The notes under the pieces were generated by a model. It saw only the letters and a program-made list of their open reading frames with translations, searched no databases and was not told the DNA's origin. Positions 14,674-56,742 of a DNA stretch of 64,000 bases are shown here, in pieces. Source of the stretch: Phoronis australis (Eukaryota; Animalia; Phoronida); contig NMRA01000165.1 of assembly GCA_002633005.1 (NCBI GenBank), positions 439,541 through 503,540 of the forward strand, in the 5' to 3' direction. Position 1 is the stretch's first letter, and every line of letters begins with the position of its first letter. The position numbers were made by a program, and so were the translations under genes.

Positions 14674-15000
14674 CCTGACTGTTCACAGAGAAACAAGAAA
14701 ATCGCGAAAATTAACAAACCGACTTCAGCCTCTATCGATCATGTGACTTCTTGACAAAAGAGGTCACTGTAAATCATATAAAATGTATCATTCGAATCAA
14801 CTTGGCATAAAGATTTGAGTTTTGGCAACAAAGAGAGAGGTATCATTTAACTGACTCTTTAAATTTTGATTTTTTTTATTATTTTTTATGTTATTTTCTT
14901 GGTTCTTGCGTCAACTGCATATAATCGATTGTTGCTTTACTTTTCACTTCCGGACCGGCATTTTTGATTTTTGGAAGTCGCGAAACGTTACCAATCAGGT
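14674..15000. promoter_or_regulatory. Putative bidirectional promoter between ATP6V1E and the BCL2L13-like gene, with a candidate non-coding first exon of the latter ending at 14998
   Basis: M-box/CLEAR-like TCATGTGAC at 14739-14747, DRE-like TATCGAT near 14733, TCGCGA near 14702 and 14978, ETS motif ACTTCCGG at 14946-14953, donor-like CAG|GTATTT at 14998/14999. The BCL2L13-like ATG exon starts at an acceptor (21530/21531), so an upstream UTR exon is required. Confidence 0.6.
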
Positions 15001-21086: not shown

Positions 21087-21532
21087 TAGATCTGCCGAAA
21101 AGTGTAAAAACTCAGCTCGCATACATTAGAAATTCTAGTTTGTACTCTTGGCCTTTGACATACAAGTTGGATTTTGCCTTACTGGGATAAAATCGTGGTC
21201 TGGTTGGATCCGACTTTTTATGAAGTTATTGAATATTATAAGTGACAACAAACTCCAAGAATATTAATGTGTAGGTCTTTAAATAAAACACTTGTTTATT
21301 CGTTTTATTCAAATACGTTTTACTTCTTAAAATATCAAGCTGAGATTGTGCTTCTCAGTCCATTGTTTAAATTGTTGACTGATAACATTTATAAATTAAA
21401 AAGCTATCTTGGCAAAGGGTGCCTGGTGCATTGTGGGTAATACGTTATCCTTATCAGCCAGACAGTCACAATCAGCTGTGAATATTTGATAGGAGTGCCA
21501 GGTTTTTTCACAGTTCTTCACTTGCTACAGAG

Positions 21533-21662
21533 ATGGACACCAAACCCTCATCAAAGCTAAACAGACAGGATAGTTTGAAGTATGAAACCAAATACCTTGT
21601 TCTAAAGTTTCTCTACCAGCCACCATGTCCCACATTGTATCAGCCACAGGGCACGGATCAGG
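21533..21662 (+). CDS. BCL2L13: BCL2L13-like coding exon 1 (MDTKPSSKLNRQDSLKYETKYLVLKFLY..., BH4-like helix)
   Basis: tacag|AG ATG; YETKY motif; GTGAGT donor, phase 1. Confidence 0.92.
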
Positions 21663-24600
21663 GTGAGTTGACATTGTCCAGGTGCATTTGTTGAAACTGA
21701 AACCAAAGTACAAATTACTTGTTGGTAGTAGGACCAGGTAGCATCAACATTGTGGAAATGCGTTATATGGTAGCTACAGGAAAGTGAACGTAATTCATTT
21801 TTCCTTATTTACCTGACTGTTTGTTATGAAATCATTTGAGCACTGTGGACCCAATTAACTAAAATTAACATGTTAGAATTATACTTAGTAGCTAGGCCAG
21901 GATAAGCACTGTAACTTACTAAGCACTTCAAAAATTATTACCTGGCTTTGGGCCCATGCCCAGCCAATCTTAATTCTTCTCAATTCCTGGGTGCTACCAC
22001 TGTCGTATCTCATCGATTAATCTAAGCACATAAGTTAGTAAAAAATACAAACCCTGATTTGCCCCCTGGTTACCTCAATCAAAAACATACAAAGCCTGCC
22101 AAATTTTTGAAAATATGATTTGACTGCATTTCTATTCTTACTTGTGGGTCCAAATTGCGTAATTTTTTTGGCAAATACGTCGTCCAAATTCATGCTGAGA
22201 AACTTTATGTCAGAAACTGTATTTCAGGCGACAAATCCTAAAACAAAAGCAGAAACTGCTACACATTTCAAAATATTGCCAAATGTTTAGTGTTGATAGC
22301 TGTATAGAGCAGTTCATGACAGGGACATTGTGTAAATGATGTCATCTTTGAGTGTCCATGTGACTGTGGCTTGTTGACATTTTTTAGAAATATAAAGATA
22401 ATACTCGAGAATTGGCTCACAACATTTCAATAATTTTGTATTAGAAGTTGATGGATAATAACTTTTAATGCAATTTTCTTCCAAATAAAGCTTTAAAATA
22501 GCCAGTGTTTACCAGAATTCCTTATCTGAGCCTATGACCAATACCAGGACTTTGGTTATCTTTTTCCTAAGAAAGAGGCCAAAATTCGCTATGTTCCCCT
22601 ACAAATTTCTGTATCTGTTTTGACGATTTGGCCTCGACTTGGCTGTAATTTTCTGAGATTTAAGTGAAAACTGAAAAATAACTAGTGTACAGCACAATGT
22701 GCGTCTTTTACAGTTGATAGTGGTCAAGAGCGAAGTTTTGTTGGCCAGGATGACCTCCAAGTTGACGGTGGTGGACCAGACTATGATGAAACAGGTAAGA
22801 GAAAGATCCTTGGGCATTGCAATGGAAGGCACCTAGCTGGGTTTCATTTGGCCTACTTAAACATGCAAAGAACAAGGTGGTCTCAGCCTGGGATTCATTC
22901 TCCTTGTCTTTAAGGTTCTTTGCACAAATTTTGAGTTGTTATCTATGTTACAAAAACAAAATAAAGTAATGTCTGAGTGTGAGTACAACACAATGTCTGT
23001 CTATAGGGTGAAGATAGACATTTTTAGGTTTATTTTTAGTTAAAACGCAATTTTCTGGTTATCCTAGTTTGAATCCAAGTTTTAATTAATTATGCATAGG
23101 TCACCACGGCCCACGATATATCTTAAATTGAACCCAAGTAACCCACGGCCCAGGATATCCAGAAAATCATTTTTTAACTAATAATAACCCTAAAAATGTT
23201 TGCCTTTCCCTTTAAATTGGAACTCCGAAGTTAAGGTGCTGGGTTCTCTGCCACTAAGATGGACTTAGTTCCTGGTTTGAGAAACAGGCTATTTTCCACT
23301 AAGATGTAACTAGTTCCTGTTATGAGAAACAGGCTCTATGTCACTAAGATGGACCTACTTCCTGTTATGAGAAACAGGCTCTTTGCCATGAAGATGGACC
23401 TACTTCCTGTTGTAAAAAACGTTTTGTACTTCTGTCATAGCTTTTACGATAGTTTATGTGGATGCCAAGAGGGTTAGATACAGTTTTCTCTGTATCTGGT
23501 GTGTTGAAACGAACTTAAAATTCTGCTTATACTTTCTGTTTCAATATGAATATATGAGTGGGCAAATAGGTAAATCTCACTGTTGTGTTATTGTTAATGT
23601 TGTTGTTTATAATGTTACACATTAGTGTTATTTTCTGGGTTATTCTGTTTGCTTGTCTAATGAGTTGGGTTTTGTTATTAACCCTTTAATAAATGCGATA
23701 TAATTTTGTGGTTTATAATTTTCATCAAAAGTTATAATTGTTGGCAAGGACAGCTTTTTTACACCAGTTGAGCATAATTTAATGCCGTGCCCCTCAAATT
23801 TCTGGAACTCAATTTTATTATCTCATTTCCTTATCCTTTGAATTGTGATAAAATGCTTCCTTGTAAGGAACAAATTGAAACTGATTGATAATTTAACTGA
23901 ACATATATTCCATATTTTCTTGAAGACAGCAGGTCTAGGCATGAAGGAAGGCCAGGTTCTGCCTTTGTTTTACAATGTTTTGTTTTTTAATACCTAAGAT
24001 AAAAATTCAGTAATCATTTTCATATTATTAACTTCGACTCAATTTTTCCTGAAAGGTAACCACAATTTACCGAAAAAATGTAATTGATATTTCCAAAATC
24101 CTGCTTTTGAATTGAAGAAGTATGCACCACAAATAAATGCACAAATTTATACTGCCCAGTCACAACCCTTCATTAGTCTAGTACTTACATTTAGCTGTCA
24201 ACTCGTGGTGGGAAATTTCATTTGCCATAACGAAGAAGTACTTATCATTTTGACCTATGATTTTTATTGTATAGAGTGTGGCTAATTGTGGCTTAATAGA
24301 ACTTTATCATTAACAATGATCATGCGTTTCAAATGAACTGGGTCATGGTCCATCCTTTTTTACCCCCACCATCTCCTGATGCCAGCTAAAATGGGGCAGA
24401 ATCCTTTTTTATGCGCCCACATATTTATATTTGGACGCATTACGCTGTCATCTCAGTCCATCCGTCTGTCCGGTGTCCGGCGTCCGCTGCTCTATCTCCA
24501 AAACGCATTGACGTATGTTCATGAAATTTTGCACATGTGTTTTTTCCGCGGATGGCATGGCATGAGCGAATGTTCAGACGGATCTGATTGCCGATGTGCC

Positions 24601-27600
24601 CCCTAGTGTCAATTTTAGTTTTTTACATTTACCTCTGTATCTTCAAAAGTCCTAAACGGATTTTCATAAAATGTAGTACATAAGCACCTATTACTTAGAT
24701 GACGTTGTCCGTTCGTTTTCAGATGGATTCAACATAGTTTGCTCCACCTGGTGGCCATTTTTGCTGTTTTCGAGTCTGTTTTTTGCGTCCACCCCTCTAT
24801 CAATCAAACCGCTCAAAGGATGATTGTGAAAATTGGCATGTATGTGCTTACTATAAAGAGGACAGTTGACAATGATTTTCCGACGATTTTGACTACTGTG
24901 GCGCCTCCTAGTGGCAGTTTTGTTTTTTGCACCTATGGCTGTATCTCCTAAACCGTTCAAAGGATCTTAACTAAATTTAGTAAGTGTATTTATATGATGT
25001 TGATAACAGACGATGGTGACTTTCGGACGAATCTGACTACTGGTGTGCCATCCAGTGGCAATTTTATTTTTTTATGTTTACCTCTGTATGTTCAAAGGTC
25101 CTCAACTCATTTTCATAAAATTTGGCATACTGGCATCTGTTAATTAGGTTTTCTTGTCTGTTTTTTTGGCGTCCACTCGTCTATCAACTAAACCGTTTTC
25201 AGGATAATTGTGAAAATTGGCAGGTATGTTTTTACTATGAAGTGGACGACTGACAATGTTTTTTGACGAGTTCGACTACTGTAGCGCCTCCTAGTGGCAG
25301 TTTTGTTTTTTGCACTCATGGCTGTATCTACTAAACTGTTTGCAGGATCTTTACTTAATTTAGCAAGTGTATTTATATGATATTGACAACAGACGACAAC
25401 GATGGATCTGACTACTGGAGTGGCAATTTTAGTTTTTTACATTTACCAATCTGTATCTTTAAAGGTCCTCAACAGATTTGCATATAGGCATCTATTGGCG
25501 AGATGATGATATCGTATAGAGGTATTTTGCGCCTCGTAGTGGCCATTTTTGCTATTTTCAAATCTTGTTTTTGGCGTCCACCCCTCAATCAACCAAATCA
25601 CATTATACGGATGGTTTTGAAAATTGGCCTGTATGTTTTTAGTGTGAAGAGGACGTTTGATGATGGCGACTGACTACTGTGGCGCCTCCTAGTGGTAGTT
25701 TTGTATTGTTGTTTTTTGCCTATAGTTGTATCTCCAAAACTCACTGCAGTATCTTTATTAAATTTATTAAGTGAATTGATATGAAGATAACAGACAACTA
25801 CTTTCAAGCGTATCGAACGGACGCTGTGCCCACAAGTAACAATTTCATTTTGTTCTGTTTCTTTTGTTTTGCTGAAGTTCCTTGACAGGTTTTGTGAAAT
25901 ATGGCATGTTCCCGTTTTGCCCCATCTAGTGGCCATTTTTATGATACTATTAAATAACCCTAAAAGCACACAATTTGCGATGCATTCGTGGGCGCATTTC
26001 AACGCTCCGTGTTGCTCTTCTTAACTAGCGCCAGCTGATGTCAGCTTTATGGGTAGGTTTCAAAATGATTTTTGTGTAGATCAACCAAATATGTTTCTGT
26101 TTTTGGCCTAATATTTTATCAGTAATTATACAACATTCATGCTTGTAAGGAACACAAGCATGTACAGTACAAGCCAAAGGTATTCAGAAAAAATGTCTCG
26201 GAATATCGCCTCATGGTGGCTGGGCAGAAGCCAAATTCGTTGTCCAAGTAGTCTTCCTTCGTGACGGAGAATAATGGGAAATTAAGGTGGCAGTTAGACC
26301 GGTGGCTATGCCAGTCTGTCATTAGAATTTTTACGGCCCTAAAAATTATTACAGGTCATTTTTGCTGTTAATAGAATTAGTAGTTAGGACTGGAAAACAA
26401 TAGTAAATCCGATTTCTTTTGTCTTGTACTGTGACACTTGTGTGGTTGTTTCCAGATAATAGTTTGTCCAGTGTGACAGCCAGGTCACTGAGTCTGTCTG
26501 AGCAGAGGAGTGACAGAACAAAACTGTCACTTGATCTCACTCGTGACATATCACATTCAGGCTACGCTTTCAAGCCTGAAGATGTCTCTGCCATCACAGG
26601 GGAGATTGAGAAGGGAGTTTCGCCTGAGATTGACCGTCTTCGTCAGGGTTAGTAGTAATTCAGTTCAGTAGTCATTTCCTGTTTGAAAATCAACTCACCA
26701 AATGACGTGTGGTGAAGCATAGTCTCGCTGTTTTGTAATGTTTCTAAAACAGATTTTTATATGATCAACTTTTTGAACATTAATTGAAGATAATTGTTTA
26801 AATTTCAAGGGAATGCTCCTGTGGTCTCTAGTAGGTTAATGGCAGTTTGTTTTTTTTCATGGCAATTAATGAAATTATTGTAATATATGTCATTTCTCCC
26901 CTTTATTTGACATAGCAAGTTCTGTAGTTGTGTAGTTGTGAATTTTGTCATCCAAGTTAACACTCAAAGGAATATTTCAATGTACATTCTAGTTCCTGTT
27001 GAATCCCCCATTTTAAGCCATGCCGAGGCTGAGAATGAAGTTGTGCATCAAATCCGAACTATCGGTGATGAGGTTTGTATATCATGGTGTCGTGAAGGAA
27101 TTACAAGCTGCTCTTTCATTAAATATATACAATAGTCACACTCTCATATGCAACAGTTTTCAAAGAACACTTGGCATTATCATCACCAAAATCTTGAAAT
27201 AAATGTTCTGGTTAAATCTTTTCAATTGGTGTACAGTTATGTTTTCTTGTGATTTCGTCATCATTTTTGCTGTGGGTTTGAAGAAACTTGGCATGATTTA
27301 ACATACTTAGTGAAATCTTAATATTTAGCTTTATTGAGGTGTTTGGGGGTGTTCACTTTTAAAATACTTTCTTTTGGTAAACAGCGTATCTTTGATATCA
27401 GAGCCAGTTCACACTACCTTGTGTTTTTCTGTAGACAGTTTTTATCAGGGCTTGGAAATTTTCCTGTTGTAAGAGGATTTCCTCTTCTGGTTTCGATTTC
27501 CTCTTATTTGGTTTCCAGTTTTCACTTTTTTGACCTCATTTATGCAAAAAAAATGTTTCTTGTAGTTTGTAAAACATGTCATCTGCAAAATTGTCCTCTT

Positions 27601-30600
27601 TTTTGTCGTTGGTCATTCCAAACCCTGTTTTATTGCTGTAGGCTCTGATGAATCATTTTCTCTTTGGCAGGTGAATGTTCGGTTTGCAAATGAGATCAGA
27701 CAAGCCAACAAATACCTGTTGGGCTCGTTTACCTATGAACAGTTCAAGAATGTAATGAGGACTCTCACTCAAGACATTAATGCCTCAGGATGGCACCAGG
27801 CAAGCAAATCACACCTATTGTCGGTGTACACCAAATGTGAAACATCCTCTCATTTGAACATTGAGTTTCATTTTGAAATCATGTCAGTGTACACCAAACG
27901 TGAAACATCTTCTCATTTGAACAGTTAGTTTCATTTTGAAATCATGTCAGATGACTCTTATGGATGGGCATGTTTGTTGCCTTATCGTAGTAAAGGTCAG
28001 ACTGTTACTGTCTGATTTCTTTTATGACTTACGGGCAAAACTAAATTGGTGTGTCGTACCTTTGAAATTCTTTGGAATCAGTTTTCAGTGATAATATGCC
28101 AATTTCTTCATTAAACTGCTCTCCTTTGGCTCTGGATCTTAATGATTTGATAGTGGTAAATGGAACAATTCAGAGTTCTAGTTTAAGTTTTTGGCAGAAT
28201 TTGGTGGTAAGATGCATCTCACGTTCAAAGTTTAATGCTTTGGCTGAAGATTCTGTGGAATGATTAAGAATTCTACGAGAGTAGAAAAAATCTTCCAAAA
28301 CACTAGAAAAATGCAATGTTTCAACATAGAACAAACTAATTTCTCACTGTTCTTTGTAGGTTGCCCTGGTGATGTCTTTCAGCCAACAGCTGGCATTTTT
28401 CTCTGTAAAACGGGGTCAGAAATTTTTGAGTGATCTTGGAGAGTACACAACTGACTACATCATGGAAAAGAGTGCTGACTTCATTATAAGACAAGGAGGC
28501 TGGGTGAGGGAGGAAACTTTGTTCATGTAGCGGTTATAGCAACCAGTTTTATGTGCCCACATAGGACCACATCATGCCCTCATCTCCATACGTCTTCTGT
28601 CCCATGCAGTATCTCCAAAACCCCTGGATGGATGCTCATAAAATTTTTCAGACATGTTTCCATAATGAAGGGGACAGCAAGAGGGCAATTTCAGACGTTT
28701 CTGCTAACTGATGTCCCCTCAAGTGGCAATTTTAGTTTTTACATTTGCCTCTGAGTTCCTTATTACAGATTTTTATGAAGTTAAACAACACCACCTTCTC
28801 ATTTTCATATGTATTTGATGTATTCTGCGCTACCAGGTAGCGGTTTTTGCTGTTCTCGAGTCATCTGGCTCCTATTGGCTAAACCACTCTAAGAATCACT
28901 ATGACAATTGGCATGTGTCCATACTTTTCAATATAGTTTATTATAGTTGCCACTGTAACAATATTCAAGTTTTATGCCAACTTAAAGGCGAAGGCAACCT
29001 TTTTTCATGTCATTTTTAGTAAAAATAAGGTTCGTTGATTATCCCAGACATATTTTTCACTTATTTACTGCTTTTCGTAATTTAATTAATTACTTGTTGT
29101 CTACTCAGGAAGTGACGTTTTGGGAGGCAAGAATTTGGCGCCAATTTCTTTTCATATAGTCTGACTGTGAGAGCAGTCGAGTCAGTCATTGTTTTACCTC
29201 GGTTGTAATAAGTTCGGTCGTCGTTTGTTTTTGCTTTCGAGTCAGTCAACATGCCACGCTGTTGCTGCGTACTGGGATGTATTCATTATCGTCTCACGTA
29301 CAGAGGAAGAACTGTCCCACTTGCCCGAGTGTCCCGCGACACACTCCCACTGGAGGGTGATCTGAACACCCAAACTGCTTACATCACGCCGTGTGACTCC
29401 CTTGTCACGCACCTGGCACCTTCCAAATAGCTCCAATACAAGTCCACAATAAACTTATCAAACTTAGGCTCACCGATCTGTTCATTGGATGACGAACTGT
29501 CCTCTTCACTGGGTGTCGAACTGGGCCTGTATTCACTACCACTACTCAACATCGCTGCAGGGCTGCTTACAGGCTCTGCCGGGGCTAGAGACAACAATAC
29601 AGGGTGAATCACTGCTAGTTCCCGGAACTGTACGCAATGGGGTACGTTCGGAGGCACGAGTGACAGTAGATAAAGTGCCTTCAGTCATTGTATATAGTGG
29701 CCACAGCTCGCGAGGCTTCTCGCTTCAAAAATGCACTTCTCGGGGGTGGCGACGGGGCATCGCTGGGAATCAGCAGCGACGGTATGGTACCCTTCTTCAG
29801 GCGTTGTTTCGCAGGGACCTTCATCAATTCAGCGTTCAGTGACATGAAAAAAGATTTCCTTCGCCTTTAGAAGCGAAGGCAACCTATTTTCATGTTATTT
29901 TTAGCAAAAATAAGGTTCGTTGATTGTCCCAGACATATTTTCCACTTAATTACAGCTTTTCGTAATTTGATTAATTATTCGTTCTCTACTCCGGAAGTGA
30001 CGTTTTAGGAGGCAACGATTTCGCGCCAATTTCTTTTCCCGTAGTTTGACTATATGAGCATTGACGAGTCAGTCATTGATCTACCTCGGTTGTCATAAGT
30101 TCAGTCGTCGTTTGCTTTTGTTTACGAGTCAGTCAACATGCCACACTGTTGCTGCCTATCGAGATGGCCCAAAGTCTGTAAGCAGCCCTGCTGCGATGTT
30201 GAGTAGTGGGAGTGAATACAGGCCCTGTTCGAGTACACCCAGTGAAGAGGACAGTTTGTCGTTCAAGGAACAGATCGGTGAGCCAAACTTTGATAAGTTT
30301 ATTGTGGTCTTGTCTAAAGTATTGGAGCTATTTAGAAGGTGCCAGGTGTGTGGCGAGGGTGTAAGCAATTTGTGTGCTCAGGTCACTATCAGTGGGAGTG
30401 TGTCACGGACACTCTGGCATGTGGGACAGTTGCTCCCCTGTTCGTGAGACGATAATGAGTACATCCCGGTACGCAGCAACAGTGTGGCATGTTGACTGAC
30501 TCATAAACAAAAGCACACGATGACCGAACTTATTAAAACTGTGAGATAGAACAATGACTGACTCGGCAGCTCTCACAGTCAGACTATACAAAAAGAAATA

Positions 30601-33600: not shown

Positions 33601-36600
33601 GAGCTACATCCAAGTTCTTGTAAGGAACCCAATCGTTTTTTGTTAAATTCAGAGACCGCTTTGAAGAATGCAATTATATAGAAAGTGGTCTTAAGGTTAT
33701 GAAGTTCTTATCGACAAGCCTAGTGTGTATTGTAACAAATGTCTAAAAACTAAAAAGTCTTTATGAATTCAAAGAAGTCTGTTAAATTTGATGTTCGATT
33801 TATCAATCTGCCATTAATTGTGTAACGTGATATGTCTTTTAAGTAAAATTCAGGAAAAACCTAATTTTCATTGATAACTGTGCCATGATGTCTGAGCATG
33901 ACTAAATTTTGTTTAAAATAATTCAAGATGCAATCTCAAAAACATTTCCAGTTTTCTAAATCATTTTGTTTTCATTTTTGTTTTATTTCCTTTTTACTTT
34001 TTTCATGAAAATTACCAAATTTGGATAGCCAGTCATTCAAATGTGGATCATTTTTAAACAATTTCTCACAGCGTTTTCTTTTTTCTAGCTCACTACATGA
34101 GGCATAGTATCCGATCAATTATTTTTGAGATATCAACAGTTCCAAAGTTGGAATTTGGATATTTTTTGCTACACAATCTTAGGTGGCCTGATGTTTTCGA
34201 ACAAGACTATTAGAATTATTGTATATCTGTAAGATGTTATTGAAACAATAATTCTGGATGTTGTCAAAACCATACTTATGCCAGATATGGATGGTTAAAG
34301 TAATAATTTGAACAAAAGATTTTTCTTGGGCAGGTACCTCCATTCCAGTTATTCACGATTAGAAATGTATAATTTTGCAGGAAGTATTCCCTTGTAAGTA
34401 GTCAATTTGTTGCAAATCCTGCCTACTTATTTCAGGGGTCAATTCAAAAAACACCTCCAGAAAGTCCTGTGTTTGATGGCAGCTCACCGCCGTCTGCTAA
34501 CGTGCTGCCATCAGGTGGTCCTGTAAGTATCACTGGAGACCTAATTTTACACACAGAGCCAGCGTTTATGTAGGCTGAGTACACAAAAAGTGTTGAATAG
34601 TTGGTGTTTAAAACTATATTTCAAACTTGCCCATGTTTTAAGATTGGCAAATGATTTCATTACTGATATTTTTGTAATGTATTTTTTCGTAACACTGAGT
34701 CAGGTCTCTCTAAGGAAGAGACTCTTCACTTTGAAGTGGGAAAAACTCTGCTCAGGGTTCATCAAGGCTGGCAGTCAAATCTATAACCTCTCCCACATGC
34801 TCACTGGTTACATAAAATCCTAAAAATTGCTGGTGTAATGTCACCATAGCTACATGTACATCTTGTAATAATGTTATAATCAAGTAGCAAGATAGTAGTG
34901 CGTGCAAATTAGTAGTCTTACAATTCAACTAGATCCAGAGCCATTTTTGTTGTTCGTGCAAAACAAAACCAACATTTGAATGAATTCATTATGACTAACT
35001 ATATCTTGTCGAGCTTTCCACTCATAAAAGCAACTCTTTGTCTCCTTTCTGCTTACTAATGACTTGCTTTCCTCTGCACAGTCATGCCGTAACACATCTA
35101 GCCGGCTCTCCTCCGACTTCCCTTTCTATGACACGAAGAGCACACTCAGTTTGGAGTCTCTGCTTCGGAAAGTAAAGAAAGACCCCGCCCCCTGCGGCCA
35201 CACATCATGTAGCTGCAGAGAGAGGTCAGATGATGATTCCTATTACAGAGCCTCCTTAAACTGGGACAATATTTGTTACCAGGACCGACGAGGAGCATCG
35301 TCCACTTTCCCATCCATGTGTAATGAGAATATACGTGAGTTAGCCGAGGCGTGGGCCGAAGCCAAGCAAATGAAGCTCCCCTCAACCAGTCCCACTTCAG
35401 GGGAGTCGGACTACTACTCGGCCTACTCAGACTACCACCGTCCAGACACGGCTGAAGTAATCGACTGTCCTGTAGCACCGACTGATGAGGAGGTGTCCAC
35501 CGAAGCTGACAGTGACCTGGAGTCGGAACCATCAAATTCTGCTGCTGAGATGCTTGAGGTGCAAGGCGTGTATTACAAGCAGGTGTCCAGCAGTCCAGAC
35601 ACTGGTCAACGCCGTTTGATTGTATCTAGCCTCTTGCCCCCTCGCACCAGGGTAAAAACTTCAAAGAAGTTCAGCATCTCCAAAGCTGCTGCATTTGTCA
35701 GCAAAGAGTCAGCATCAGAGAGTGGAAGTACTACCTCAACAGACTCAGCAGTGTCTGGTACTCCAGAGTTTCCGATCTCTGAGGAGTTACTTGAACAGAT
35801 TAAGCACATTGAGGTGCTGGTGGTCAGTGAGAAAGAGACATCTAGCAGTGACAGTGAAGAGGAAGGCAGACACCAGCCAATGTGCACCCTCGGCCGAGTT
35901 TGCGGAGCTGATCCTGCAGTAAGCATTGACAATGAAGTGCAACATAGCAAAGACAGTAGTAGTAGTAGTAGCTGCATTAGTTTACAGAGAGCTGGTGAGT
36001 CATTTGCAGTTGATGCTGTGGGTGCAGTGCCAATAAGGATCGATTGCCGTGACAACAAGTTGAAGTTCAAGATAGCTGGCTCCATGACTCACACCTTTGG
36101 TGACTCATTACAAGGCATGGAGAAAAACTGGGAGTTTGCAAGTGGTGGCGAGGAGTACAACGTGCACACCCCAAAGCAATTCAGAGACGAGACTTACCAG
36201 AGGGAGTGTGAGGGGTCATTCTGTGTTCCTAACTTCATCATCAGCCCTTCTCGAGATAGTGTTTTTACTTCTGTCGTCTTGACTAACAGTGAACATGATG
36301 TGGTGTCCTGTAACGATGTCTGGGAAGATGCCCAAGAGTATACAGAGATGCCGTCACCACCAACCACCATTGTACACCCTTCTTTGGCTTCCTTGAAGAC
36401 ACACAGAACTGTAGATACTAGCCCATCAGTTTCAGCAGTGCCTTTGTTGAAGACAAGCGTGGAGCCAGCTAGTATAAGTACTTCCATTTCTAGCTCTCTG
36501 TTGCTACGTAAACGCGATTGTGAGAATGCTGTTCCGTTGTCAGATGTTCACAGTTCACTATTGACTATGGGCGGAAAATCAGACAGTCAAGCCATGAAGT

Positions 36601-39600
36601 CGCTGTTGAAAGTTACTTTACCAAATGACAATAAGGGAACCAAATATCGTAGTCCGCTGAAAAGTACTGAAATTTCAATCAAAGAATTTTCAGGTTCATC
36701 TTTAGCTGAGGACAAAAATACTTACAATGAACAGGTGACAGGTCTCAAACAAGATACTGAAAATGCGCAACAGATGAGCATGATGAAAGGTATGGCAGAA
36801 AGTGTGTCAGAGGACAATAAAGATGCTGGCAATAGTTCATGGCACTTGCGTGATCCCTGTAGGTCATCTGAACCAGACGGAAATACAGATAAGGATACTG
36901 ATGTCCAATACGCTGACAATGATAAGAGCTCCGTTCTGCTAACAAACACTGAAGAGCTGTCTTGCATTACAGATGCTGGAGAAAACAAAACAAAATCTGA
37001 TCGTGATCTTCAGTTGAGAAGCAATATCAGAGAAACAAGTGCTACTGAATGTGGCACCAGTCAGGGTATAGTTTTATGTAACGGTAGTCCTTCTGCCAAA
37101 CATTTGTCTGAAAGTGTTATCACTCAAGATTGTGATGAATTATCTGTGGTGTCTTCAAAACAGACACCTGCAAATGAAAATAAAACTGATAGCACTAAAT
37201 ATGCATCACAGAATGTGGATCCCGCTGATGGTTACCAATCATTAGAATGTCCAAGTGAAGGTGGCACTTTTCAGAAAATTGAAGGAAATACTTCCCAGAA
37301 GACCAACTATGATAATTCACAGAACAGAGACGGTGACACCTCTCAATGCTCAGAAGATGATCCAGTTCAGACCACCAAAGAGGACAGTTCTGAGATGATC
37401 ATGCATGATGGATCCCAGAGCAATGAAGACAATAATTACCAGAATACAGAATATGGCACCATTCAAATAACCGAAGACGAAACTTCTCATAATATAGAAG
37501 GTGATACTTCTCAGAACACTGAAGGTGACTCTCCTCCGAACACACAAGGTGACACTTTCCCAAACACTGAAGGTGACACTTCTCAGAGCACAGAAGGTGA
37601 CACTTCTCAGAGAACAGAAGGTGACACTTCTCAGAGAACAGAAGGTGACACTTCTCAGAGCACAGAAGGTGACACTTCTCAGAGAACAGAAGGTGACACT
37701 TCTCAGAGAACAGAAGGTGACACTTCTCAGAAGACTGAAGGAGATACTTCACAAACATCTTCTGAACATGGCAGTTCAGAGAACATTAAATATGATGCAT
37801 CTCAAACTGGTGTAAAGTGCAACAATACAGTTGTTTCCCCGGAAGTTTTTGATGGGCCACCACAAAAGGGCTCTGAAAGTGTTACAGAAGATCACCTCCA
37901 AAGTGTCGCTGTTGGAAAGGCTATCCCATGTCGAAATAACTTAGCTCCTACACTGCCTGCAATTGACTGTGATGTGGAACACTATCCATGTAATTCTGTC
38001 ACTGTGACTAATGACACAATTAGCCAAACAGATGAAGTGTCCTTTGAGTATGAGACCAGTGTGATGAGTACTCAGACGGAGGATCCAGTTCACAGTACTG
38101 ATATGGGGGTGCAGTACTCACCCTGCATGGATAATGAAACTACACAAACAAGCCAAACTAGTATCACTGGCAGCACCATTTGGACTTCTTTGTCAACCAG
38201 GAGAAAAGAAGACAAAGGTTTTCAGTTTTGTCCCTGTACAGATGAAGTACCGTCGCAAACTGAAAGTAATGGACCAAATGTAATGCAAACTCAAACGAAA
38301 CTTCTGAATTACAGCGAGCAGTTTGCTTCTTTATCTGAGGCCGCAACCAAACAAACTTTGGAAAATGCAAGTGGGGTATGTAACACAATTGGTAGTAAGA
38401 AGAAATTGTGGGATTGCTCAATTATCCAACTAGGCAAGTCGGTGAGCATTTCAAAGAGGAAACAGAGTGCTGAGAGAGAGAAGGAACTGGCAGAGATACG
38501 AAAGTCACAGTGGCAAGCTGCATCTAATATGGTTAGCTGTTTGGGCATTAAACCAGAGAAGGTGAGATTTTCGGTCGATGGAATCAACTTTGTGAAGCTA
38601 GAAACAGGCCCAACTGGCAAAAGTGAGCGCCATCAGTGGATGGAAGACAAATTTATTGAGCGAGCACTGAGACGGTCGCCTAGGAAAGATAAACACATTG
38701 ATGATACAGTTGAGGCACGCGATTCTGAAGTCGGTTTGAATCAACTGGCCAAGAATCAGTACAAATCACCTACTGCATTGCGGCTAGCCATGAATACCTC
38801 AAGTAATGAAATGACTGAGAGGAATGTAAAAGAAGTGTTTGATGAGGCTAAAAACGGCAATTTTGGTGAAATAAGAGGTGGTGACGAATCTATGCCATTG
38901 CCTGGATTATCCAGTTCTGATGTAGTTGAAAACGAAAGTTCATCTACATCTGAAGTAACATCTGTCAGCCTGTCATTGGATAACAGTGAATCTAAGCTGC
39001 AGGTAAGTGGTGATCTTCAAAAGAGATTTCTTAAGACAGCCAGGGCTACCAAGACATTACATCACAAAGGCAAAGATGAGGTCACAGGGCAAGACTGTGA
39101 GCATACTACCACTAGGGGAAATACACACTCTGAAAGAAATCAGTCCAACAATCATGGATATGACATGATTTCAAGTGAGGGTCTTCAAGAAAATGAAAAT
39201 ATTTCAGCTCCAGGAACAAGTCACCATCCTTCAGCTGGCACAAGTCAGTCTGAAAATGTGGTTAGTGGTAAGAACGTCACTGAAGTTAATGGCACTGTCG
39301 GCCAATGTAGAGTTGAAAATACAAAGAAAAAAGTTGAAAATGCTGACATCCCTAATGCTGGTGGTGGTGGGGTTTTATTCCATGGCCCTGCATTCATAAA
39401 AAGTAATTTTCAGTGTTCTTACAGCAAAGGATCAGATTACAATAGCAAAAGAGCAGTGGCAGAGGTGCTTGTTGATGGAGAGGAGTCCAGACACGAGTCT
39501 TCATGTACTACCAAAGCTCAAAGGAGTGATGAATCACATGCGTCAAGAAGACACTTCTGTTTTCCAGTAGATAGTATTTCACAAGACCTAACTACTGCCC

Positions 39601-42600
39601 ATCAGTGGCACAATCTTCACCCAAAAGATAGTCTGACTGTCAATTTGCCTAGTTCACTGTGGCATATGGGGAAGGCTTCATCCTCCAACCAGCCCACTGT
39701 GAGTGTGCACATTCCTGAGTCAGTACGTGAAATGACAGTCCGGTATGGAAATTGCACTCCTGCCGAATTTAGGACTGTGTCTACGAGTAGACCATCACTT
39801 CCAACTCCCTTAAAGTTGGATAGAAGTATGGAAATTCTGAGTTCCTCTTGCAAACATTTGAGTCCCTTGAAGGAAGTTGAGGTAAATGATGAAGAACGGG
39901 CTTATAAACCAGCATGTATTAAAGCTGACATACTGGAAACAGGGCAGCAAAGTAAGGGGCATGTTGGTCAGTCAGAGACAGAACCACTTAACACAGCTCA
40001 TTTTAAGTTCTGGTATGGTTGCAGCCCATCTTTGCTAGCTGCTAAGGAAAAAGGTTTGGGTGTGACAGGCTCTTCTAAGTATAAAACACGTGAAGAGTTG
40101 TGTCCGAAAAAAGGATCACTTCATGCAACGATCAATCAACTAGAGGAAGTTGTGGGTCCGCAGACTGACGTGACTGACATCATGTCTGTTTTGCAGCAGA
40201 TGAATCACTCTCTACAAGAACTGCAGAACTATCAAAGCAAAATGATGTCTGAGAATATAACAAAGTTCTCCACAAAGCAAGCAAGTGATGAAAAGACCAT
40301 CGAGGAAGCTCACACTTCGTCCGTTGCTGGGCATGGTGTATACCGAAGAGACATTAACCTTACTCAGAGTTTCAAGTACAACCAGGTTTGTGTGGATCCC
40401 AATAAGGAGTGCAAGGCATCAAATAGAACCAATGATAGGAGCAGCATGATAGTCAATGTTGGAGAGGAAAGTCCCGATACACGTAGCATTCTGACAGGGA
40501 CCCCACGGGAATTAGTCGATGACTTAGAAAGTATGTACTCACCAGGCCAAAGCGCCATTAGTTCTGGTCTAAGTATTCTGTCCCAAACCCCCAGCGTCAC
40601 CGCTAGCAAGAATTGCTTCGACTTTGAGAGCTGCAGTCTTAGAAAAGAATCAATACGTAGAGACAAGGGTAGTCGGGACTCGTTTAGTCGGAAGTCTGTC
40701 AGATGGTGGCCTGGTCTACATGTCCAGTGCGATGTTGCTGAACACAATTCGGGTGAGTCTGCTCACCCATTAGTGTCAGCAGCTTGTTTTTCTACTCACA
40801 AACAACCTACAATTTCTTTTGCAAAATTAATGCTTCTGGTTGGTATTGAGCATTTCAACTTTTGTTTTGCTTTAATGCTCTGCGCATTTTGCATTAACCA
40901 TCTCGTTGCTGTTATGTAAAGTACAATCTGCATGTTCCTGCACCTGTTATGTTTCAGAAGGAACTCCTAATACTGTTTTCTGTTTGAACATGCACTGTTC
41001 TTGGAAATCTGTTGATGAACCGATAGGTTATTTGAACGTAAAAAATCTTTAAATAGGTTACTTTATTCTCAAAATGGTGTTTTTGTAAGAATATACTCCA
41101 TGCATGGTGCAGTGGTTTTCTTAGTACCATTCCAATACTGGATGAACACTGGACAATGAGTTGTGTCAGATATTTTTTGCCTCATTTTTTAAAATCATTC
41201 ATTACTTATCACTTTTTAGTTATACCGATTTAACGGTATTATGCAGTTTTCATGTGTTTGGCTATGTAATCACAATAAGTGGTTAGCATGCAAAGTCCAC
41301 TTTAATCAACTCTAAACCCATCATCCATCGCAAAAACCAAGTTTGTTTTGACCACTTACCATTAGGAAATAGTTATCAAATTGTCTCTTAGTCATGTTAG
41401 AGGTGACAATAATGCTTGGAATGAAGAAACAGTTCAGTATTGCTTGACACCAGGATCTAGTCGGTGTAACATTTCTGCGCTAAGCATAGTATTACGGAAC
41501 CACAGTCAATTCTTTGCAAACCCAGAAATCACTTTTCATCTCAATATTAAGGAAAAGATTGAAATAAATTTCTTATCGGAAACTAGCTTATTTAAATCAA
41601 AAATTCTTCGTAGGCAGAGAATGGGTCTATAGCCACTTTTTCAAAACTGTGGAATTGTTCTCGACATTCTCACTTGTAAAGAATGAGCAGTCAAGCCTAT
41701 TAATGTTCTTTTAATTTAATTTACTTTCAGAGCAAACGGCAGTAGATGCTTGCCACATGTCAAGTGTGAATCAGTCATCCACACCCTCCACTCAGCAAAG
41801 CACACCAAACACATTGAAGCAATCCGTTAGTCTCGTCGCTAATGTACCCAGTTCATTATTGCTTGTCAACTCACATGACTCTAAAGCTGAAGAGATTTGT
41901 ATGTTTGTTGAGTCTGATGACAGGATCACAGACCAATCAACTTCCAAGATGTCTAAGATAATGAGAAACAAAAAACTTTGCAAGGAAGGATTTGTTCATC
42001 CCAGAGGGATCAGACATTCTCCAATTTCTGATAAAACTAAGTCGCAGTCTGTGGGTCAGGCTATGAAGTCCTCTTCTATGTCTTTACTGGTAGGAGCCAT
42101 CGATTCCCCTGCATCACTGGCTAACATCCCGCAAAAAGTACTCCCTCCCTCCGACAGTCTTCTTGTTGCTGTTACAGAGTCACTGTACCAACGACAGGGG
42201 ATTGACCAACCATCTCATATGGACAATCTTGGTATCAGTCCTTGTTCATTTGAAGAAAGTGGGTCATCAAGTTCGAAAGAAGAGAATTCAACAGCCAAAC
42301 AAGTCATTGTTAACCGGACATCAACACTCACTGTAGAAACGAAACCTCAGAAGTTGTTTAACACAAGCAGCTCAGACAGTACTGTGCATCCACAAGAGAG
42401 TATATCAGAGATGAGCCGTGATGAAATCACGCATTCAAGTCCAAGGTTCTCAACCACGATGTCATCCTCTTCAAGTGACAGCTCTGAGAAACTTGTTAGC
42501 TCAGTTGACCTAGAGGTGGGACACAAGAATAAGCACCGTGATAATGTCCCTGGTCAGCACCGGGATTCCTTGAATGAAAAGGTCATGGACACTCAAGATT

Positions 42601-49961: not shown

Positions 49962-50719
49962 AAACGTCTTCACGACTTCTACGTTTTCTTAATTTATGTA
50001 TATTTTTATTGTGTTAATAGCAGCGCTGCTTCCTTTTCTGTACACCACCTTTAGTTAATTACAGTACTTACGATAGCGTTATTTTAGATAAAAGCCAGGC
50101 CTTTTTCTACTGCAGTTGAATTTTCCCTTGTGGATGACTGATATAACCTCTGACCAACACCTCGGCATATTTGTGTTACCAAGGAATCTTGTTTTAGTGC
50201 AATTGTTACTTATGGTGTGTTTTGTTTACACCCAGGCGCGTTACTCCACATAAGTTCTGTGGAAATTTATTTATATTTTATTTAAATTAAGTATGTTATC
50301 TGCTGTTAATTTAGAGCTCTGCGAGTTTTTGTACCATATTTTTGTCTTTCAATGCTAAAACGGGTATGTTGTGTGCCAACAATTCGTAACCTTCATGTTC
50401 CTGTTTTGAATTGTTAGCCAACGCTATTCAATTATTCTTTCAGGTAGCTTGATAATACAGACAAACTGGTTATTTAATTTATATTTGTGATATTGAATGT
50501 GTGGTGAGAAATTCTGTGTGGCAATAATCTCTGTGAACGAGACAGGCTGAGTCAAAGACTTACTGAAGGTACAAATTTCATGACTTTTTTACCAAATAGG
50601 CCTACCACGTTACTATTCTTAAAATATTTTTATAGATAATTTCTTATCGGGAGGAATTAAAATGTCATATCTTCAATGATTGGGGAGTATCAACTGTTTT
50701 GAAATCTTCGTCAATAGAC

Positions 50720-53588: not shown

Positions 53589-53630
53589 TCAGTCCAACTC
53601 GAAATCACTGCTATCCTCTACCATGGAGTC
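53589..53630 (-). CDS. BID-like gene, terminal coding exon (DSMVEDSSDFELD*)
   Basis: tcttatag acceptor phase 0; TGA stop; AT-rich UTR follows, with minus-strand AATAAA near 52512 and 52335. Confidence 0.7.
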   Translation of the reverse strand, partial: DSMVEDSSDFELD

Positions 53631-56600: not shown

Positions 56601-56712
56601 TACTTTTTCTCTGGAAGTGAGGTAGTTGTATGGCCCAAATCGATGCTTGAGCCGGGACTTTCATCGAGGACATCTAGTGATTTAGATTTGTGACCAGGGC
56701 TGCGTAGGCTCT
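53589..56712 (-). CDS. BID-clade Bcl-2 family protein at the syntenic position of BID (5' exon(s) not found); at least 422 aa, no transmembrane anchor
   Basis: Phase-compatible GT-AG exons 56020-56712, 55396-55526, 54954-55106, 54570-54818, 53589-53630. Pro-rich region, DLQID|GGGDS, BH3 VAKKLAEIADSY, second BH3 LASLLRHRGDEF, core TYNQFK...EGFQQIAVLFQL...QYFEDKFAEWLSDQGGW, ending DSMVEDSSDFELD*. Confidence 0.88.
53797..54267. mobile_element. hAT-like MITE in the last intron of the BID-like gene
   Basis: CAGGCCTTGGAAT / ATTCCAAGCCCTG inverted ends; TAATTG duplicated on both sides; repeated GCGGAAA subterminal motifs. Confidence 0.7.
54570..54818 (-). CDS. BID-like gene, Bcl-2 core exon ending in BH2 (EWLSDQGGW)
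   Basis: atacag acceptor, GTGAGT donor after GGW, 249 nt. Confidence 0.92.
54954..55106 (-). CDS. BID-like gene, second BH3 exon (EMKLASLLRHRGDEFAN)
   Basis: tgcag acceptor, GTAAGA donor, 153 nt. Confidence 0.88.
55396..55526 (-). CDS. BID-like gene, first BH3 exon (EEEKDVIYDKVAKKLAEIADSYVQQ)
   Basis: ttacag acceptor, GTAAAG donor, phase 1-0. Confidence 0.88.
56020..56712 (-). CDS. BID-like gene, Pro/Ser-rich exon ending in a caspase-type site
   Basis: tgtttcag acceptor, G|GTGACT donor, 693 nt, phase 1-1, within the 257-aa ORF. Confidence 0.85.
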
Positions 56713-56742
56713 CTGAAACAACCAAAAACAGCACTTGGTATG

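What the first reader, a model, noticed from the sequence alone, without database searches (positions are those of the whole stretch)
22714..22794. The BCL2L13 orthologue has its own BID-like caspase loop (DDLQVD61|GGG) on a separate 81-nt exon
Seen: a symmetric phase 1-1 exon encodes GQDDLQVD|GGGPDYDET, with the scissile Asp at residue 61, between the BH4-like helix and the BH3. A DETD71 motif forms across the next junction. The neighbouring gene has the near-identical DLQID|GGG. Known: human BID is cut at LQTD60 with a second site at IEAD75; I recall no such motif in human BCL2L13. Inference: the common ancestor of BID and BCL2L13 was caspase-activated, and here both paralogues may be caspase-8 substrates. 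Skipping the exon would give an in-frame uncleavable isoform.
Basis: partly seen in the sequence, partly recalled or inferred. Interest (0 to 1): 0.82.

Follow-up and report, generated by a model that had tools for sequence, protein, structure and literature searches.

The report
Likely caspase site in BCL2L13-like gene
A small, expressed exon of an animal's BCL2L13-type cell-death gene carries the motif DLQVD|GGG, which the neighbouring sister gene shares and which resembles the caspase-8 cut site of vertebrate BID; it is therefore likely a protease cut site, but cutting is untested and the one orthologue found elsewhere lacks the motif.

Summary
Window 22714-22794 is an 81-nt, phase 1-1 exon with AG/GT borders. 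It encodes DSGQERSFVGQDDLQVD61|GGGPDYDET between a BH4-like helix and the BH3 of a Bcl-2-family gene. Stranded RNA-seq reads join it to both flanking exons, and no exon-skipping joint was listed.

The tail-to-tail neighbour gene carries DLQID|GGG at the collinear place. The two proteins are about 25% identical. The 8-mer match beat all of 5000 shuffles, and five codons differ only at third positions, so it is not recent gene conversion. LQ[VI]D followed by G or S occurs 4 times in the 4771 coding residues of the two genes (0.14 expected).

A caspase site is the best reading, but it rests on motif evidence only.
- DETD71 forms only with the minor splice acceptor (11 of 38 reads) and on the reference allele.
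- The neighbour matches no BID model. It has BH1/BH2 and a proline-rich N-terminus.
- The only orthologue retrieved, a metagenome contig, has no LQxD in its linker, only DEYD|G.
- A coral Bcl-RAMBO has LQLD|S upstream of its BH4-like helix.

Verdict: a real feature and a predicted new member of the caspase-cleavable Bcl-2-family loops, of moderate interest.

The parts
14973..14998 (+). 3' end of the non-coding first exon of gene 1 (its start was not determined); donor CAG|gt at 14998/14999
   Evidence: A loose-end consensus of 28 X1 reads lying before 21528 matches here exactly.
21531..21662 (+). Gene 1 coding exon 1. ATG at 21533; holds the BH4-like helix (LKYETKYLVLKFL); ends in phase 1.
   Evidence: Joint 21662|22714 has 37/19/1 reads.
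22714..22794 (+). The exon of the finding: 81 nt, phase 1-1, encoding DSGQERSFVGQDDLQVDGGGPDYDET
   Evidence: Both joints are seen in RNA-seq.
22752..22775 (+). Codons of DLQVD61|GGG, the predicted cleavage motif (P1 Asp = 22764-22766)
26456..26647 (+). Exon 3 with two in-frame acceptors: 26456 (minor, 11 of 38 reads, adds 35 residues and creates DETD) and 26561 (major, 27 of 38 reads)
   Evidence: The minor-only segment holds RSDRTKLSLDL, which is conserved in L001 as RADRTKLKLEI.
26993..27072 (+). Exon 4, BH3 (VVHQIRTIGDE)
   Evidence: Joints 26647|26993 (41/26 reads) and 27072|27671 (27/27 reads).
27671..27799 (+). Exon 5 (..FTYEQFKNVMRTL..ASGWHQ), followed by a GC-AG intron
   Evidence: Joint 27799|28360 has 51/32 reads.
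28360..28503 (+). Exon 6, BH1-BH2, ending ..IIRQGGW before GTGAGG
   Evidence: Pfam Bcl-2 PF00452, E 7.4e-07, 30.1 bits against a cut-off of 31.4. 42% identical to L001.
34436..34522 (+). Predicted exon 7 (GSIQKTPPES.., phase 0-0). Inferred, not seen in reads.
   Evidence: Splice sites and phases. Resembles L001's GGW|GSVMSFDP continuation.
35082..49961 (+). Giant open frames likely forming the C-terminal extension of gene 1: 35028-40919 (1963 aa), 41715-46520 (1601 aa), 47996-48583, and 48726-49961 with the hydrophobic stretch IWPWCAVGVAVGLVGVYCL. Holds a further LQID|G at 44031-44045. Linkage to gene 1 is inferred.
   Evidence: The 3' region 50000-50933 is expressed in X1 and X2 but not X3, like the 5' exons.
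56020..56714 (-). Neighbour gene, 695-nt exon with a proline-rich region, LQVD|S (56588-56599), LKLD|G (56081-56092) and DLQID|GGG (56033-56056). Ends in phase 1. The upstream exon lies outside the window.
   Evidence: (joint 56020|55526 with 30/27/5 reads; loose end at 56714 with 15/21 reads)
55396..55526 (-). Neighbour exon with a BH3-like stretch, VAKKLAEIADSYVQQ
54954..55106 (-). Neighbour exon with the BH3 (LASLLRHRGDEFAN), which aligns with the BH3 of gene 1
54570..54818 (-). Neighbour BH1-BH2 exon ending ..SDQGGW, with the conserved intron right after Trp
   Evidence: Joint 54570|53630 has 18/12/4 reads. Pfam Bcl-2 E 6.3e-04. Weak Bcl-xL match, E 0.19.
53589..53630 (-). Start of the neighbour's last exon: 13 codons (DSMVEDSSDFELD) then stop. 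No membrane anchor.

Best explanation
Exon 22714-22794 is a real, regularly included coding exon of a BCL2L13/Bcl-rambo-type gene, and its DLQVD61|GGG is likely a caspase cleavage site of the BID kind.

Shown here:
- The exon is spliced into mRNA.
- It encodes the linker between the N-terminal BH4-like helix and the BH3.
- The adjacent tail-to-tail paralogue has DLQID|GGG at the collinear position. This is the only strongly conserved block in otherwise diverged linkers, and the codons differ at synonymous sites.
- LQ[VI]D|[G/S] is over-represented in the two genes.

Inferred:
- An Asp-specific protease with a preference for an aliphatic P4 residue (an initiator-type caspase) would cut after Asp61.
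- That cut would detach the BH4-like helix from the rest of the protein, which is predicted to stay membrane-anchored. BID, Bfk, Bcl-2 and Bcl-xL are cut in the same kind of loop before their BH3.
- In the anchor-less neighbour, the cut would remove the proline-rich N-terminal part. It would expose a Gly-Gly-Gly-Asp-Ser-Gly end that fits the recalled N-myristoylation pattern used by truncated BID.
For: - Exon and phases.
- Splicing: 21662|22714 with 37/19/1 reads; 22794|26456 plus 26561 with 19/19/0 reads.
- Paralogy: blastp is collinear from the motif to GGW, 24-25% identity, E 1e-07 to 1e-09.
- Motif beyond chance: score 42 against a shuffle maximum of 38, 0 of 5000.
- Codons: GAC CTC CAA GTT GAC GGT GGT GGA against GAT CTG CAG ATT GAT GGT GGA GGA. 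Five differences are synonymous third positions and one is Val/Ile, which points to selection on the protein rather than recent conversion.
- Both introns after the motif are phase 1.
- LQ[VI]D occurs 4 times in 4771 coding residues against 0.14 expected, 0 of 2000 shuffles. All four are followed by G or S. The whole window in six frames has only 5.
- Within exon 2, only position 22789 appears among the 40 listed letter differences (92 more were not shown), although most reads differ from the reference by 1-5%.
- Literature: LQTDG is identical in five vertebrate Bids (PMC2572728, passages). [quoted passage not shown]
Against: - There is no cleavage data of any kind.
- The one orthologue retrieved (L001; 42% identical in the BH1-BH2 exon) has no LQxD in its 254-residue first exon. 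Its only [DLIVE]xxD|[GSA] site there is DEYD|GSNA. The local alignment that places this site opposite LQVD61 is not significant (score 36 against shuffles 31 +/- 5; 178 of 1000 reach it).
- The coral AmBclRAMBO has ETLQLD|SSS about 25 residues upstream of its BH4-like helix, not after it (supplement read by eye).
- The enrichment count is post hoc, because the motif was defined from two of the four hits.
- One of the four hits (44031-44045) lies in a region that looks helical and may be buried.
- Disorder and accessibility of the linker were not modelled, because spliced proteins cannot be given to the fold tool.
- No closer relatives could be found, and the exhaustive HMMER search never ran.
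Confidence: 0.5

Rival explanations
1. DLQ[VI]DGGG is a conserved short linear motif with a function other than caspase cleavage. It could be a docking or modification site, a turn that positions the N-terminal helix, or a site for a different Asp-directed protease. Its likeness to BID's LQTD|G would then be coincidental.
For: The conservation between paralogues shows constraint but not what the constraint is. The motif is missing from the L001 linker and sits elsewhere in the coral protein. That pattern fits a lineage-specific motif as well as it fits an ancestral cleavage site.
Against: P4 Leu, P1 Asp and P1' Gly in a Bcl-2-family linker just before a BH3 matches the documented BID and Bfk arrangement (PMC2572728; PMC8814693). 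The repeated LQ[VI]D|[G/S] and LKLD|G sites in the neighbour's N-terminal extension look like protease sites rather than one docking site. No alternative motif class was identified.
Confidence: 0.27
2. The motif has no function. It is a slowly decaying remnant of the duplication, or an old short conversion tract, and the caspase-like look is chance.
For: Only two sequences carry it. LQxDG occurs about as often as chance predicts in a six-frame reading of 64 kb (3 seen; about 2 expected by my own arithmetic). The linker alignment with L001 is not significant.
Against: 0 of 5000 shuffles reach the shared 8-mer. The flanks have diverged completely and five synonymous sites differ, so neutral retention of 7 of 8 residues at about 25% overall identity is unlikely. 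LQ[VI]D is enriched about 28-fold in the coding frames.
Confidence: 0.13
3. The exon works mainly as a cassette. Regulated skipping would give an in-frame isoform without the site, so splicing rather than proteolysis would be the switch.
For: The exon is symmetric (phase 1-1), so skipping keeps the frame. The gene does use alternative splicing next door, at acceptors 26456 and 26561.
Against: No joint from 21662 to 26456 or 26561 is among the 15 joints listed at a threshold of 3 reads and 2% (4 weaker joints were not shown). Meanwhile 21662|22714 has 37 and 19 reads. Exon 2 depth is similar to its neighbours. Only three samples were examined, and one of them hardly expresses the gene.
Confidence: 0.05

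Closest known systems
[quoted passage not shown]
   Same: Leu-Gln-x-Asp followed by Gly, at about residue 60, upstream of the BH3 in a Bcl-2-fold protein. The motif is identical in five vertebrate Bids (PMC2572728). The host gene lies next to a BCL2L13-type gene, as BID does in human 22q11 (order BCL2L13, BID, MICAL3: PMC7862319).
   Different: Gene 1 is a multi-BH, probably membrane-anchored, BCL2L13-type protein, not a BH3-only protein. Its neo-N-terminus GGGPDY does not fit the recalled myristoylation pattern, while the neighbour's GGGDSG does. P2 is Val or Ile rather than Thr. Cleavage has not been shown. The literature read here places Bid no earlier than jawed vertebrates (PMC8998228).
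Bfk/BCL2L15 (caspase-3/7 site DEVD41|S in the alpha1'-alpha2 loop) and Bcl-G/BCL2L14
   Same: These are anchor-less Bcl-2 relatives with BH3 and BH2. Bfk becomes pro-apoptotic after caspase removal of its N-terminal helices (PMC8814693). The neighbour's BH1-BH2 exon has its nearest Atlas clusters among 'B2L14 fragment' (0.90) and 'Bcl-2-like protein 15' (0.78, 19% of whose members carry PF06393 BID) (leads only).
   Different: The neighbour keeps a canonical ..GGW BH2 and a BH1-like stretch. It has a proline-rich extension of 200 or more residues. It gave no PDB hit to Bfk or BID. The motif is LQID rather than DEVD.
BCL2L13 / Bcl-rambo (vertebrates; coral AmBclRAMBO)
   Same: The order is BH4-like helix, long linker, BH3, BH1, BH2, long C-terminal extension with tandem repeats, and a hydrophobic tail. 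Block-wise likeness to AmBclRAMBO, by eye: ETRIVVLDFL / ETKYLVLKFL, SYEQF / TYEQF, GWSKVAL / GWHQVAL, KGGW / QGGW. Likeness to L001 was computed: E 1e-09 and 3e-06.
   Different: The extension here would be about 4000 residues, against about 250-450 in L001, coral and vertebrates. A review of BCL-RAMBO mentions no caspase cleavage of the protein (PMC9800997, the 8 'cleav' passages). I recall no LQxD|G in human BCL2L13, but did not check.
Caspase cleavage of Bcl-2 and Bcl-xL in the loop between alpha1/BH4 and alpha2/BH3 (recalled from Cheng et al. 1997 and Clem et al. 1998; not read here)
   Same: The cut falls between the BH4 helix and the BH3 of a membrane-anchored multi-BH protein and removes BH4. 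This is the closest mechanistic analogue for gene 1.
   Different: The site sequences differ, and the consequence here (gain of killing activity or otherwise) is unknown.

Membership tests
Caspase-cleavable pre-BH3 loop of the BID type | Tetrapeptide with P1 Asp, aliphatic P4 and a small P1' residue | tested here: met
   LQVD61|G in gene 1 and LQID|G in the neighbour
Caspase-cleavable pre-BH3 loop of the BID type | Site lies between the N-terminal helix or helices and the BH3, in a flexible loop | tested here: inconclusive
   The order BH4-like (residues 17-28), site (58-61), BH3 (about 150 in the long isoform) is shown. Flexibility was not modelled, because spliced proteins are not accepted by the fold tool. 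For the neighbour, it is unclear whether a helix precedes the site.
Caspase-cleavable pre-BH3 loop of the BID type | Conserved in relatives | tested here: inconclusive
   Conserved between the two paralogues. Absent as LQxD from the L001 linker, which has DEYD|G. The coral protein has LQLD|S upstream of the BH4-like helix. No closer relatives were found.
Caspase-cleavable pre-BH3 loop of the BID type | Actually cut by a caspase, with a change of activity | not testable with these tools
   Needs biochemistry
BCL2L13 / Bcl-rambo (gene 1) | Bcl-2 domain with BH1 and BH2 | tested here: inconclusive
   Exon 6 alone matches Pfam PF00452 at E 7.4e-07 with 30.1 bits, just under the 31.4-bit cut-off. 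The whole spliced domain could not be scanned.
BCL2L13 / Bcl-rambo (gene 1) | Sequence likeness to recognised BCL2L13 orthologues | tested here: inconclusive
   Clear likeness to L001, an unnamed contig with the full Bcl-rambo layout. Likeness to the published coral AmBclRAMBO was judged by eye only. No named BCL2L13 was retrieved by the database searches.
BCL2L13 / Bcl-rambo (gene 1) | Long C-terminal extension ending in a membrane anchor | tested here: inconclusive
   Giant same-strand open frames, phase-compatible splice sites, a hydrophobic 19-mer and a matching expression pattern. No joint from 28503 onward was observed.
BID (neighbour gene) | Match to the BID family model (Pfam PF06393) or to solved BID chains | tested here: not met
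   No PF06393 hit at E <= 1 for four exons. No BID or Bfk chain at E <= 10 for three exons. Exons were tested singly, so a weak whole-protein match cannot be excluded.
BID (neighbour gene) | No membrane anchor, a BH3, and a caspase site exposing a myristoylatable Gly | tested here: met
   The stop comes 13 codons after GGW. BH3 is LASLLRHRGDEF. The neo-N-terminus GGGDSG fits G-{EDRKHPFYW}-x(2)-[STAGCN]-{P}. That pattern is recalled from PROSITE, not fetched, and it is very permissive.
BID (neighbour gene) | Lies next to BCL2L13 | tested here: met
   The two genes lie tail to tail, about 1.3 kb apart at their 3' ends. The human order BCL2L13-BID-MICAL3 is given in PMC7862319. The convergent orientation in human is recalled.

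The most novel reading that the evidence does not exclude
The two LQ[VI]D|G sites mark a caspase-to-mitochondria switch that predates vertebrates. On this reading, a BCL2L13-type gene and its tail-to-tail neighbour descend from one caspase-activated ancestor. The neighbour is an anchor-less, BH3-bearing protein whose cut end could be myristoylated, and it would be the pro-orthologue of the vertebrate BID/Bfk/Bcl-G group, kept in the same synteny as human BCL2L13-BID. The tBID-like link between initiator caspases and the Bcl-2 family would then be ancestral to bilaterians rather than an invention of jawed vertebrates.
Probability: 0.2. Interest if true: 0.8.

Novelty: new member of a known kind. 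Interest (0 to 1): 0.5.

Why it matters
Caspase cutting of BID is the textbook link between death-receptor signalling and mitochondria. The survey read here places Bid no earlier than cartilaginous fishes (PMC8998228). A BCL2L13-type gene and an adjacent anchor-less paralogue both carry a BID-like LQxD|G, in what looks like a non-vertebrate animal (the taxon was not determined). That would make an older origin of this link directly testable with a few cleavage assays. It would also suggest a regulatory step for BCL2L13/Bcl-rambo, whose control is poorly understood. The BCL-RAMBO review read here mentions no cleavage of the protein. If the site is not cut, the finding reduces to a well-annotated paralogue pair.

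Tried and rejected
- **RNA holders:** the index search listed no RNA holder. The three raw-read runs carrying the same species label were laid instead.
- **Word-seeded protein searches:** three searches found nothing. These used gene 1 exon 6, the neighbour's BH1-BH2 exon, and residues 600-1601 of the 1601-aa frame against proteins of 2803-5000 aa.
- **Exhaustive HMMER search of representatives:** it never ran. All 10 tries met a full queue. Conservation in closer relatives therefore stays open.
- **Whole genome:** not held, so the neighbour's 5' exon and the species' caspases could not be looked up.
- **Earlier findings of this scan:** the near-place look-up, the word look-up for BCL2L13/BID/caspase/Bcl-rambo and two sequence look-ups returned nothing; only the word look-up for 'Bcl-2' gave entries.
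- **Pfam:** no family on the giant frames and none on the proline-rich exon.
- **PDB sequence search:** only weak Bcl-xL and Bcl-w matches, or nothing relevant.
- **Atlas look-alikes:** leads only.
- **Rfam:** no match in the window.
- **Paper searches:**
  - A search for the motif strings LQVDG, LQIDG, DLQVD and DLQID found nothing relevant among the 15 of 41 papers listed.
  - A search on BCL2L13, BID, invertebrate and caspase cleavage gave no report of a cleaved BCL2L13 among the titles listed and the papers opened; a search on Bid-like, invertebrate and caspase-8 listed one paper, on Drosophila Mtch, which I did not open.
  - Two searches were uninformative.
- **Supplements:** those of PMC2246300 and PMC8998228 held none of the motif strings searched. 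PMC3582728 is not held.
- **Alignment with L001:** I considered and rejected using the alignment of LQVD61 with L001's DEYD174 as evidence of positional conservation, because it is not significant.
- **SFVGQ..GGG / SFQSGGG resemblance:** also set aside as probable low-complexity chance.
- **Structure and complex prediction:** not used, because spliced proteins are not accepted.
Full report
**What is at the coordinates**

The window is animal-type DNA: 32-49% G+C (mostly 35-45%), introns of 0.3-7 kb, and many repeats. At 22714-22794 an 81-nt open stretch is bounded by ttttacag| and |gtaag. The start codon is ATG 21533. A spliced 5' UTR exon at about 14973-14998 carries an in-frame TGA with no ATG after it, which fixes this start. 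Exon 1 ends in phase 1 at 21662. Exon 2 then reads V-DSGQERSFVGQDDLQVDGGGPDYDET and also ends in phase 1. The Asp of LQVD is residue 61.

**Transcription**

The index search listed no RNA holder. Three raw-read RNA-seq runs with the same species label were therefore laid on the window. Two of them (X1, X2) express the gene. X3 hardly does. Reads lie with the first mate on the minus strand, and the introns are GT..AG, so the RNA comes from the plus strand.

| Joint | Reads X1 / X2 / X3 |
|---|---|
| 21662\|22714 | 37 / 19 / 1 |
| 22794\|26456 | 5 / 6 / 0 |
| 22794\|26561 | 14 / 13 / 0 |
| 26647\|26993 | 41 / 26 / 0 |
| 27072\|27671 | 27 / 27 / 0 |
| 27799\|28360 (a GC-AG intron) | 51 / 32 / 0 |

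Three points follow.
- Exon 2 is spliced exactly as predicted.
The major acceptor, 105 nt downstream and in frame, gives ..DET-G-YAFKPED.. rather than DETD.
- Position 22789 reads G instead of A in 13 of 19 reads (Glu69 to Gly). The proposed second site therefore exists only in a minority isoform of the reference allele.

No joint from exon 1 to exon 3 is among the 15 listed at thresholds of 3 reads and 2%. Four weaker joints were not shown. Skipping is thus absent or rare in these samples.

**The gene**

- Exon 4 encodes a BH3 (VVHQIRTIGDE).
- Exon 5 encodes ..FTYEQFKNVMRTL..ASGWHQ.
- Exon 6 (28360-28503) ends ..IIRQGGW before GTGAGG. Alone it matches Pfam Bcl-2 at E 7.4e-07, 30.1 bits against a cut-off of 31.4.

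Downstream on the same strand lie a phase-compatible small exon candidate (34436-34522) and giant open frames of 1963, 1601, 195 and 411 codons. The last frame holds a hydrophobic 19-mer. The 3' region 50000-50933 is covered at about 85x and 71x in X1 and X2 and under 1x in X3, like the 5' exons. I infer one very long BCL2L13-like transcript, but no joint beyond 28503 was observed.

A metagenome contig, L001, carries a complete gene of the same layout:
- a BH4-like helix (MDFRSETKFVMLNF);
- a long linker;
- RADRTKLKLEI, which matches gene 1's RSDRTKLSLDL in the minor-isoform segment;
- a BH3;
- a BH1-BH2 exon 42% identical to gene 1 (tblastn E 1e-09);
- the same intron right after GGW;
- an acidic extension of about 440 residues and a tail anchor.

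The published coral AmBclRAMBO groups with vertebrate B2L13 in its authors' tree. It shows the same blocks by eye (PMC4715348 passages and supplementary files 1 and 6). Gene 1 is best called a BCL2L13/Bcl-rambo-type gene. No named BCL2L13 was retrieved computationally.

**The neighbour**

The neighbour lies on the minus strand. RNA-seq defines these exons:
- 56714-56020 (695 nt);
- 55526-55396;
- 55106-54954;
- 54818-54570;
- a last exon starting at 53630.

The joints carry 30/27/5, 13/13/7, 17/23/6 and 18/12/4 reads, so the gene is expressed in all three runs. Its 5' exon lies outside the window.

The protein, partial at 422 residues, has these parts:
- a proline-rich region;
- ..RRRLKLDGLVSPQKHDLQIDGGGDSGQ at the end of the large exon, which ends in phase 1 like gene 1's exon 2;
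- a BH3 (LASLLRHRGDEFAN);
- a BH1-BH2 exon ending QGGW with the conserved intron after Trp;
- a stop 13 codons later, with no anchor.

blastp aligns the neighbour collinearly with gene 1 from the motif to GGW (24-25% identity, E 1e-07 to 1e-09). It is a genuine old paralogue.

It is not demonstrably BID. There is no PF06393 hit on four exons. Three of them (the proline-rich exon was not searched) gave no BID or Bfk chain in the PDB, only weak Bcl-xL matches. Atlas look-alikes point loosely to the Bcl-G and Bfk clusters (leads only).

**Is the shared motif more than chance?**

- In the pre-BH3 regions (150 and 312 residues), the best ungapped 8-mer is DLQVDGGG / DLQIDGGG with score 42. Shuffles give 25 +/- 2.7 with a maximum of 38, and 0 of 5000 reach the observed score.
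- The codons differ at five synonymous third positions plus the Val/Ile change, and the flanks are unrelated. This argues for selection on the peptide and against recent conversion.
- LQ[VI]D occurs four times in the 4771 coding residues of the two genes:
  - LQVD61|G in gene 1;
  - LQID|G at 44031-44045;
  - LQVD|S in the neighbour;
  - LQID|G in the neighbour.

  Composition predicts 0.14 occurrences, and 0 of 2000 shuffles reach four. The whole window in six frames holds five.
- The neighbour also has LKLD|G 13 residues upstream of LQID.

The count is post hoc. Even so, the two extra sites were not used to define the motif.

**Conservation elsewhere**

This is the weak point.
- Three word-seeded database searches found no relatives.
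- The exhaustive HMMER search never got a slot in 10 tries.
- In L001 the 254-residue first exon has no LQxD. Its only [DLIVE]xxD|[GSA] site is DEYD|GSNA. The best local alignment puts this site opposite LQVD61|GGG, but the alignment is not significant (178 of 1000 shuffles reach it).
- L001 has LLQVD|Y in its C-terminal extension.
- The coral protein has ETLQLD|SSSEG about 25 residues before its BH4-like helix.

An Asp-small bond somewhere in the N-terminal part recurs, but positional conservation is not shown. In L001 the region is not a separate exon.

**Mechanism**

Best reading (confidence 0.5): the linker encoded by exon 2 holds a cleavage site for a caspase that accepts Leu at P4. Cutting would remove the BH4-like helix.

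The documented analogues are:
- BID, whose LQTDG is identical in five vertebrates (PMC2572728);
- Bfk, cut at DEVD41|S. [quoted passage not shown]
- Bcl-2 and Bcl-xL, cut between BH4 and BH3 (recalled, not read here).

For the anchor-less neighbour, the exposed GGGDSG fits the recalled N-myristoylation pattern, while gene 1's GGGPDY does not. This suits a soluble paralogue that needs a membrane-targeting step and an anchored one that does not. All of this is inference.

Rival readings and their confidences:
- a conserved motif with another role (0.27);
- a functionless remnant (0.13);
- a splicing cassette as the main switch (0.05).

**Novelty**

The survey read here states that Bid does not appear before cartilaginous fishes and is absent from lamprey and hagfish (PMC8998228). 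The BCL-RAMBO review mentions no cleavage of the protein (PMC9800997). Searches for the motif strings and for Bid-like genes in invertebrates gave nothing relevant. Human BCL2L13 and BID are neighbours (order given in PMC7862319). The same pairing here hints at old synteny.

The taxon of the window was not determined. The gene's architecture and the high read polymorphism suggest a non-vertebrate animal, but that is an impression. I rate the feature as a predicted new member of a known kind, the caspase-cleavable loops of Bcl-2-family proteins. Its interest is moderate, because the decisive evidence (cleavage, and conservation in close relatives) is missing.

Noticed in passing
window 35028-49961 (+): Four very long open frames (1963, 1601, 195 and 411 codons) with no Pfam family. 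They are likely the C-terminal extension of the BCL2L13-type gene, which would then encode about 4000 residues or more, roughly ten times the usual size. The last frame has a tail-anchor-like hydrophobic stretch followed by 35 more residues.
   Followed up: partly
window 26456 / 26561 (+): Alternative in-frame 3' splice sites 105 nt apart (11 against 27 of 38 reads). The optional 35-residue Ser-rich segment contains RSDRTKLSLDL, which is conserved in the metagenome orthologue L001.
   Followed up: partly
window 27800-28359 (+): A GC-AG intron (donor CAG|GCAAGC) supported by 51 and 32 junction reads.
   Followed up: yes
window 22789 and 26509: Non-synonymous differences between the reference and the RNA samples inside the linker: Glu69Gly in 13 of 19 reads and a Ser-to-Gly change in 25 of 25 reads. 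Among the listed differences, none falls in the DLQVDGGG codons.
   Followed up: partly
window 44212-45146 around the N at 44679: A 468-bp unit repeated 2.0 times at 98% identity, flanking a single N. This is probably an assembly artefact that duplicates about 140 codons of the 1601-codon frame.
   Followed up: no
window 37482-37757 (+): A 24-nt tandem repeat (11.5 copies) encoding TEGDTSQ(R/S/K) units inside the giant frame. It is reminiscent of the tandem repeats in the Bcl-rambo extension (recalled).
   Followed up: no
window 24264-26239 (intron 2 of gene 1): Repeat-derived sequence transcribed at up to about 100x in all three runs, including the run that does not express gene 1. It shows many chimeric joints and loose ends and is probably an active or read-through transposon family. 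Related copies lie at 2269-5092.
   Followed up: no
window 21794-22040: A short stretch in intron 1 covered only by opposite-strand reads (2-5x in all three runs), with two fixed differences from the reference. It may be an antisense or repeat transcript.
   Followed up: no
window 22714-22737 (+) and 55083-55106 (-): Gene 1's exon 2 begins Q|VDSGQERS, and a later exon of the neighbour begins Q|VESGQESS (8-mer score 31 against a shuffle mean of 25). The neighbour also has DSGQ right after its GGG. This may be a trace of an old internal duplication, or low-complexity chance.
   Followed up: partly
window 55396-55526 (-): The neighbour has a second BH3-like stretch (VAKKLAEIADSYVQQ) on its own exon, upstream of the BH3 that aligns with gene 1.
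   Followed up: no
L001 911-5250: A metagenome contig carries a complete, compact Bcl-rambo-type gene of an unidentified animal. Its BH4-like helix and linker lie in one open frame of at least 254 codons. Its BH3 and the following helix share one exon. It has the conserved intron after GGW, an acidic extension of about 440 residues, and a tail anchor.
   Followed up: partly
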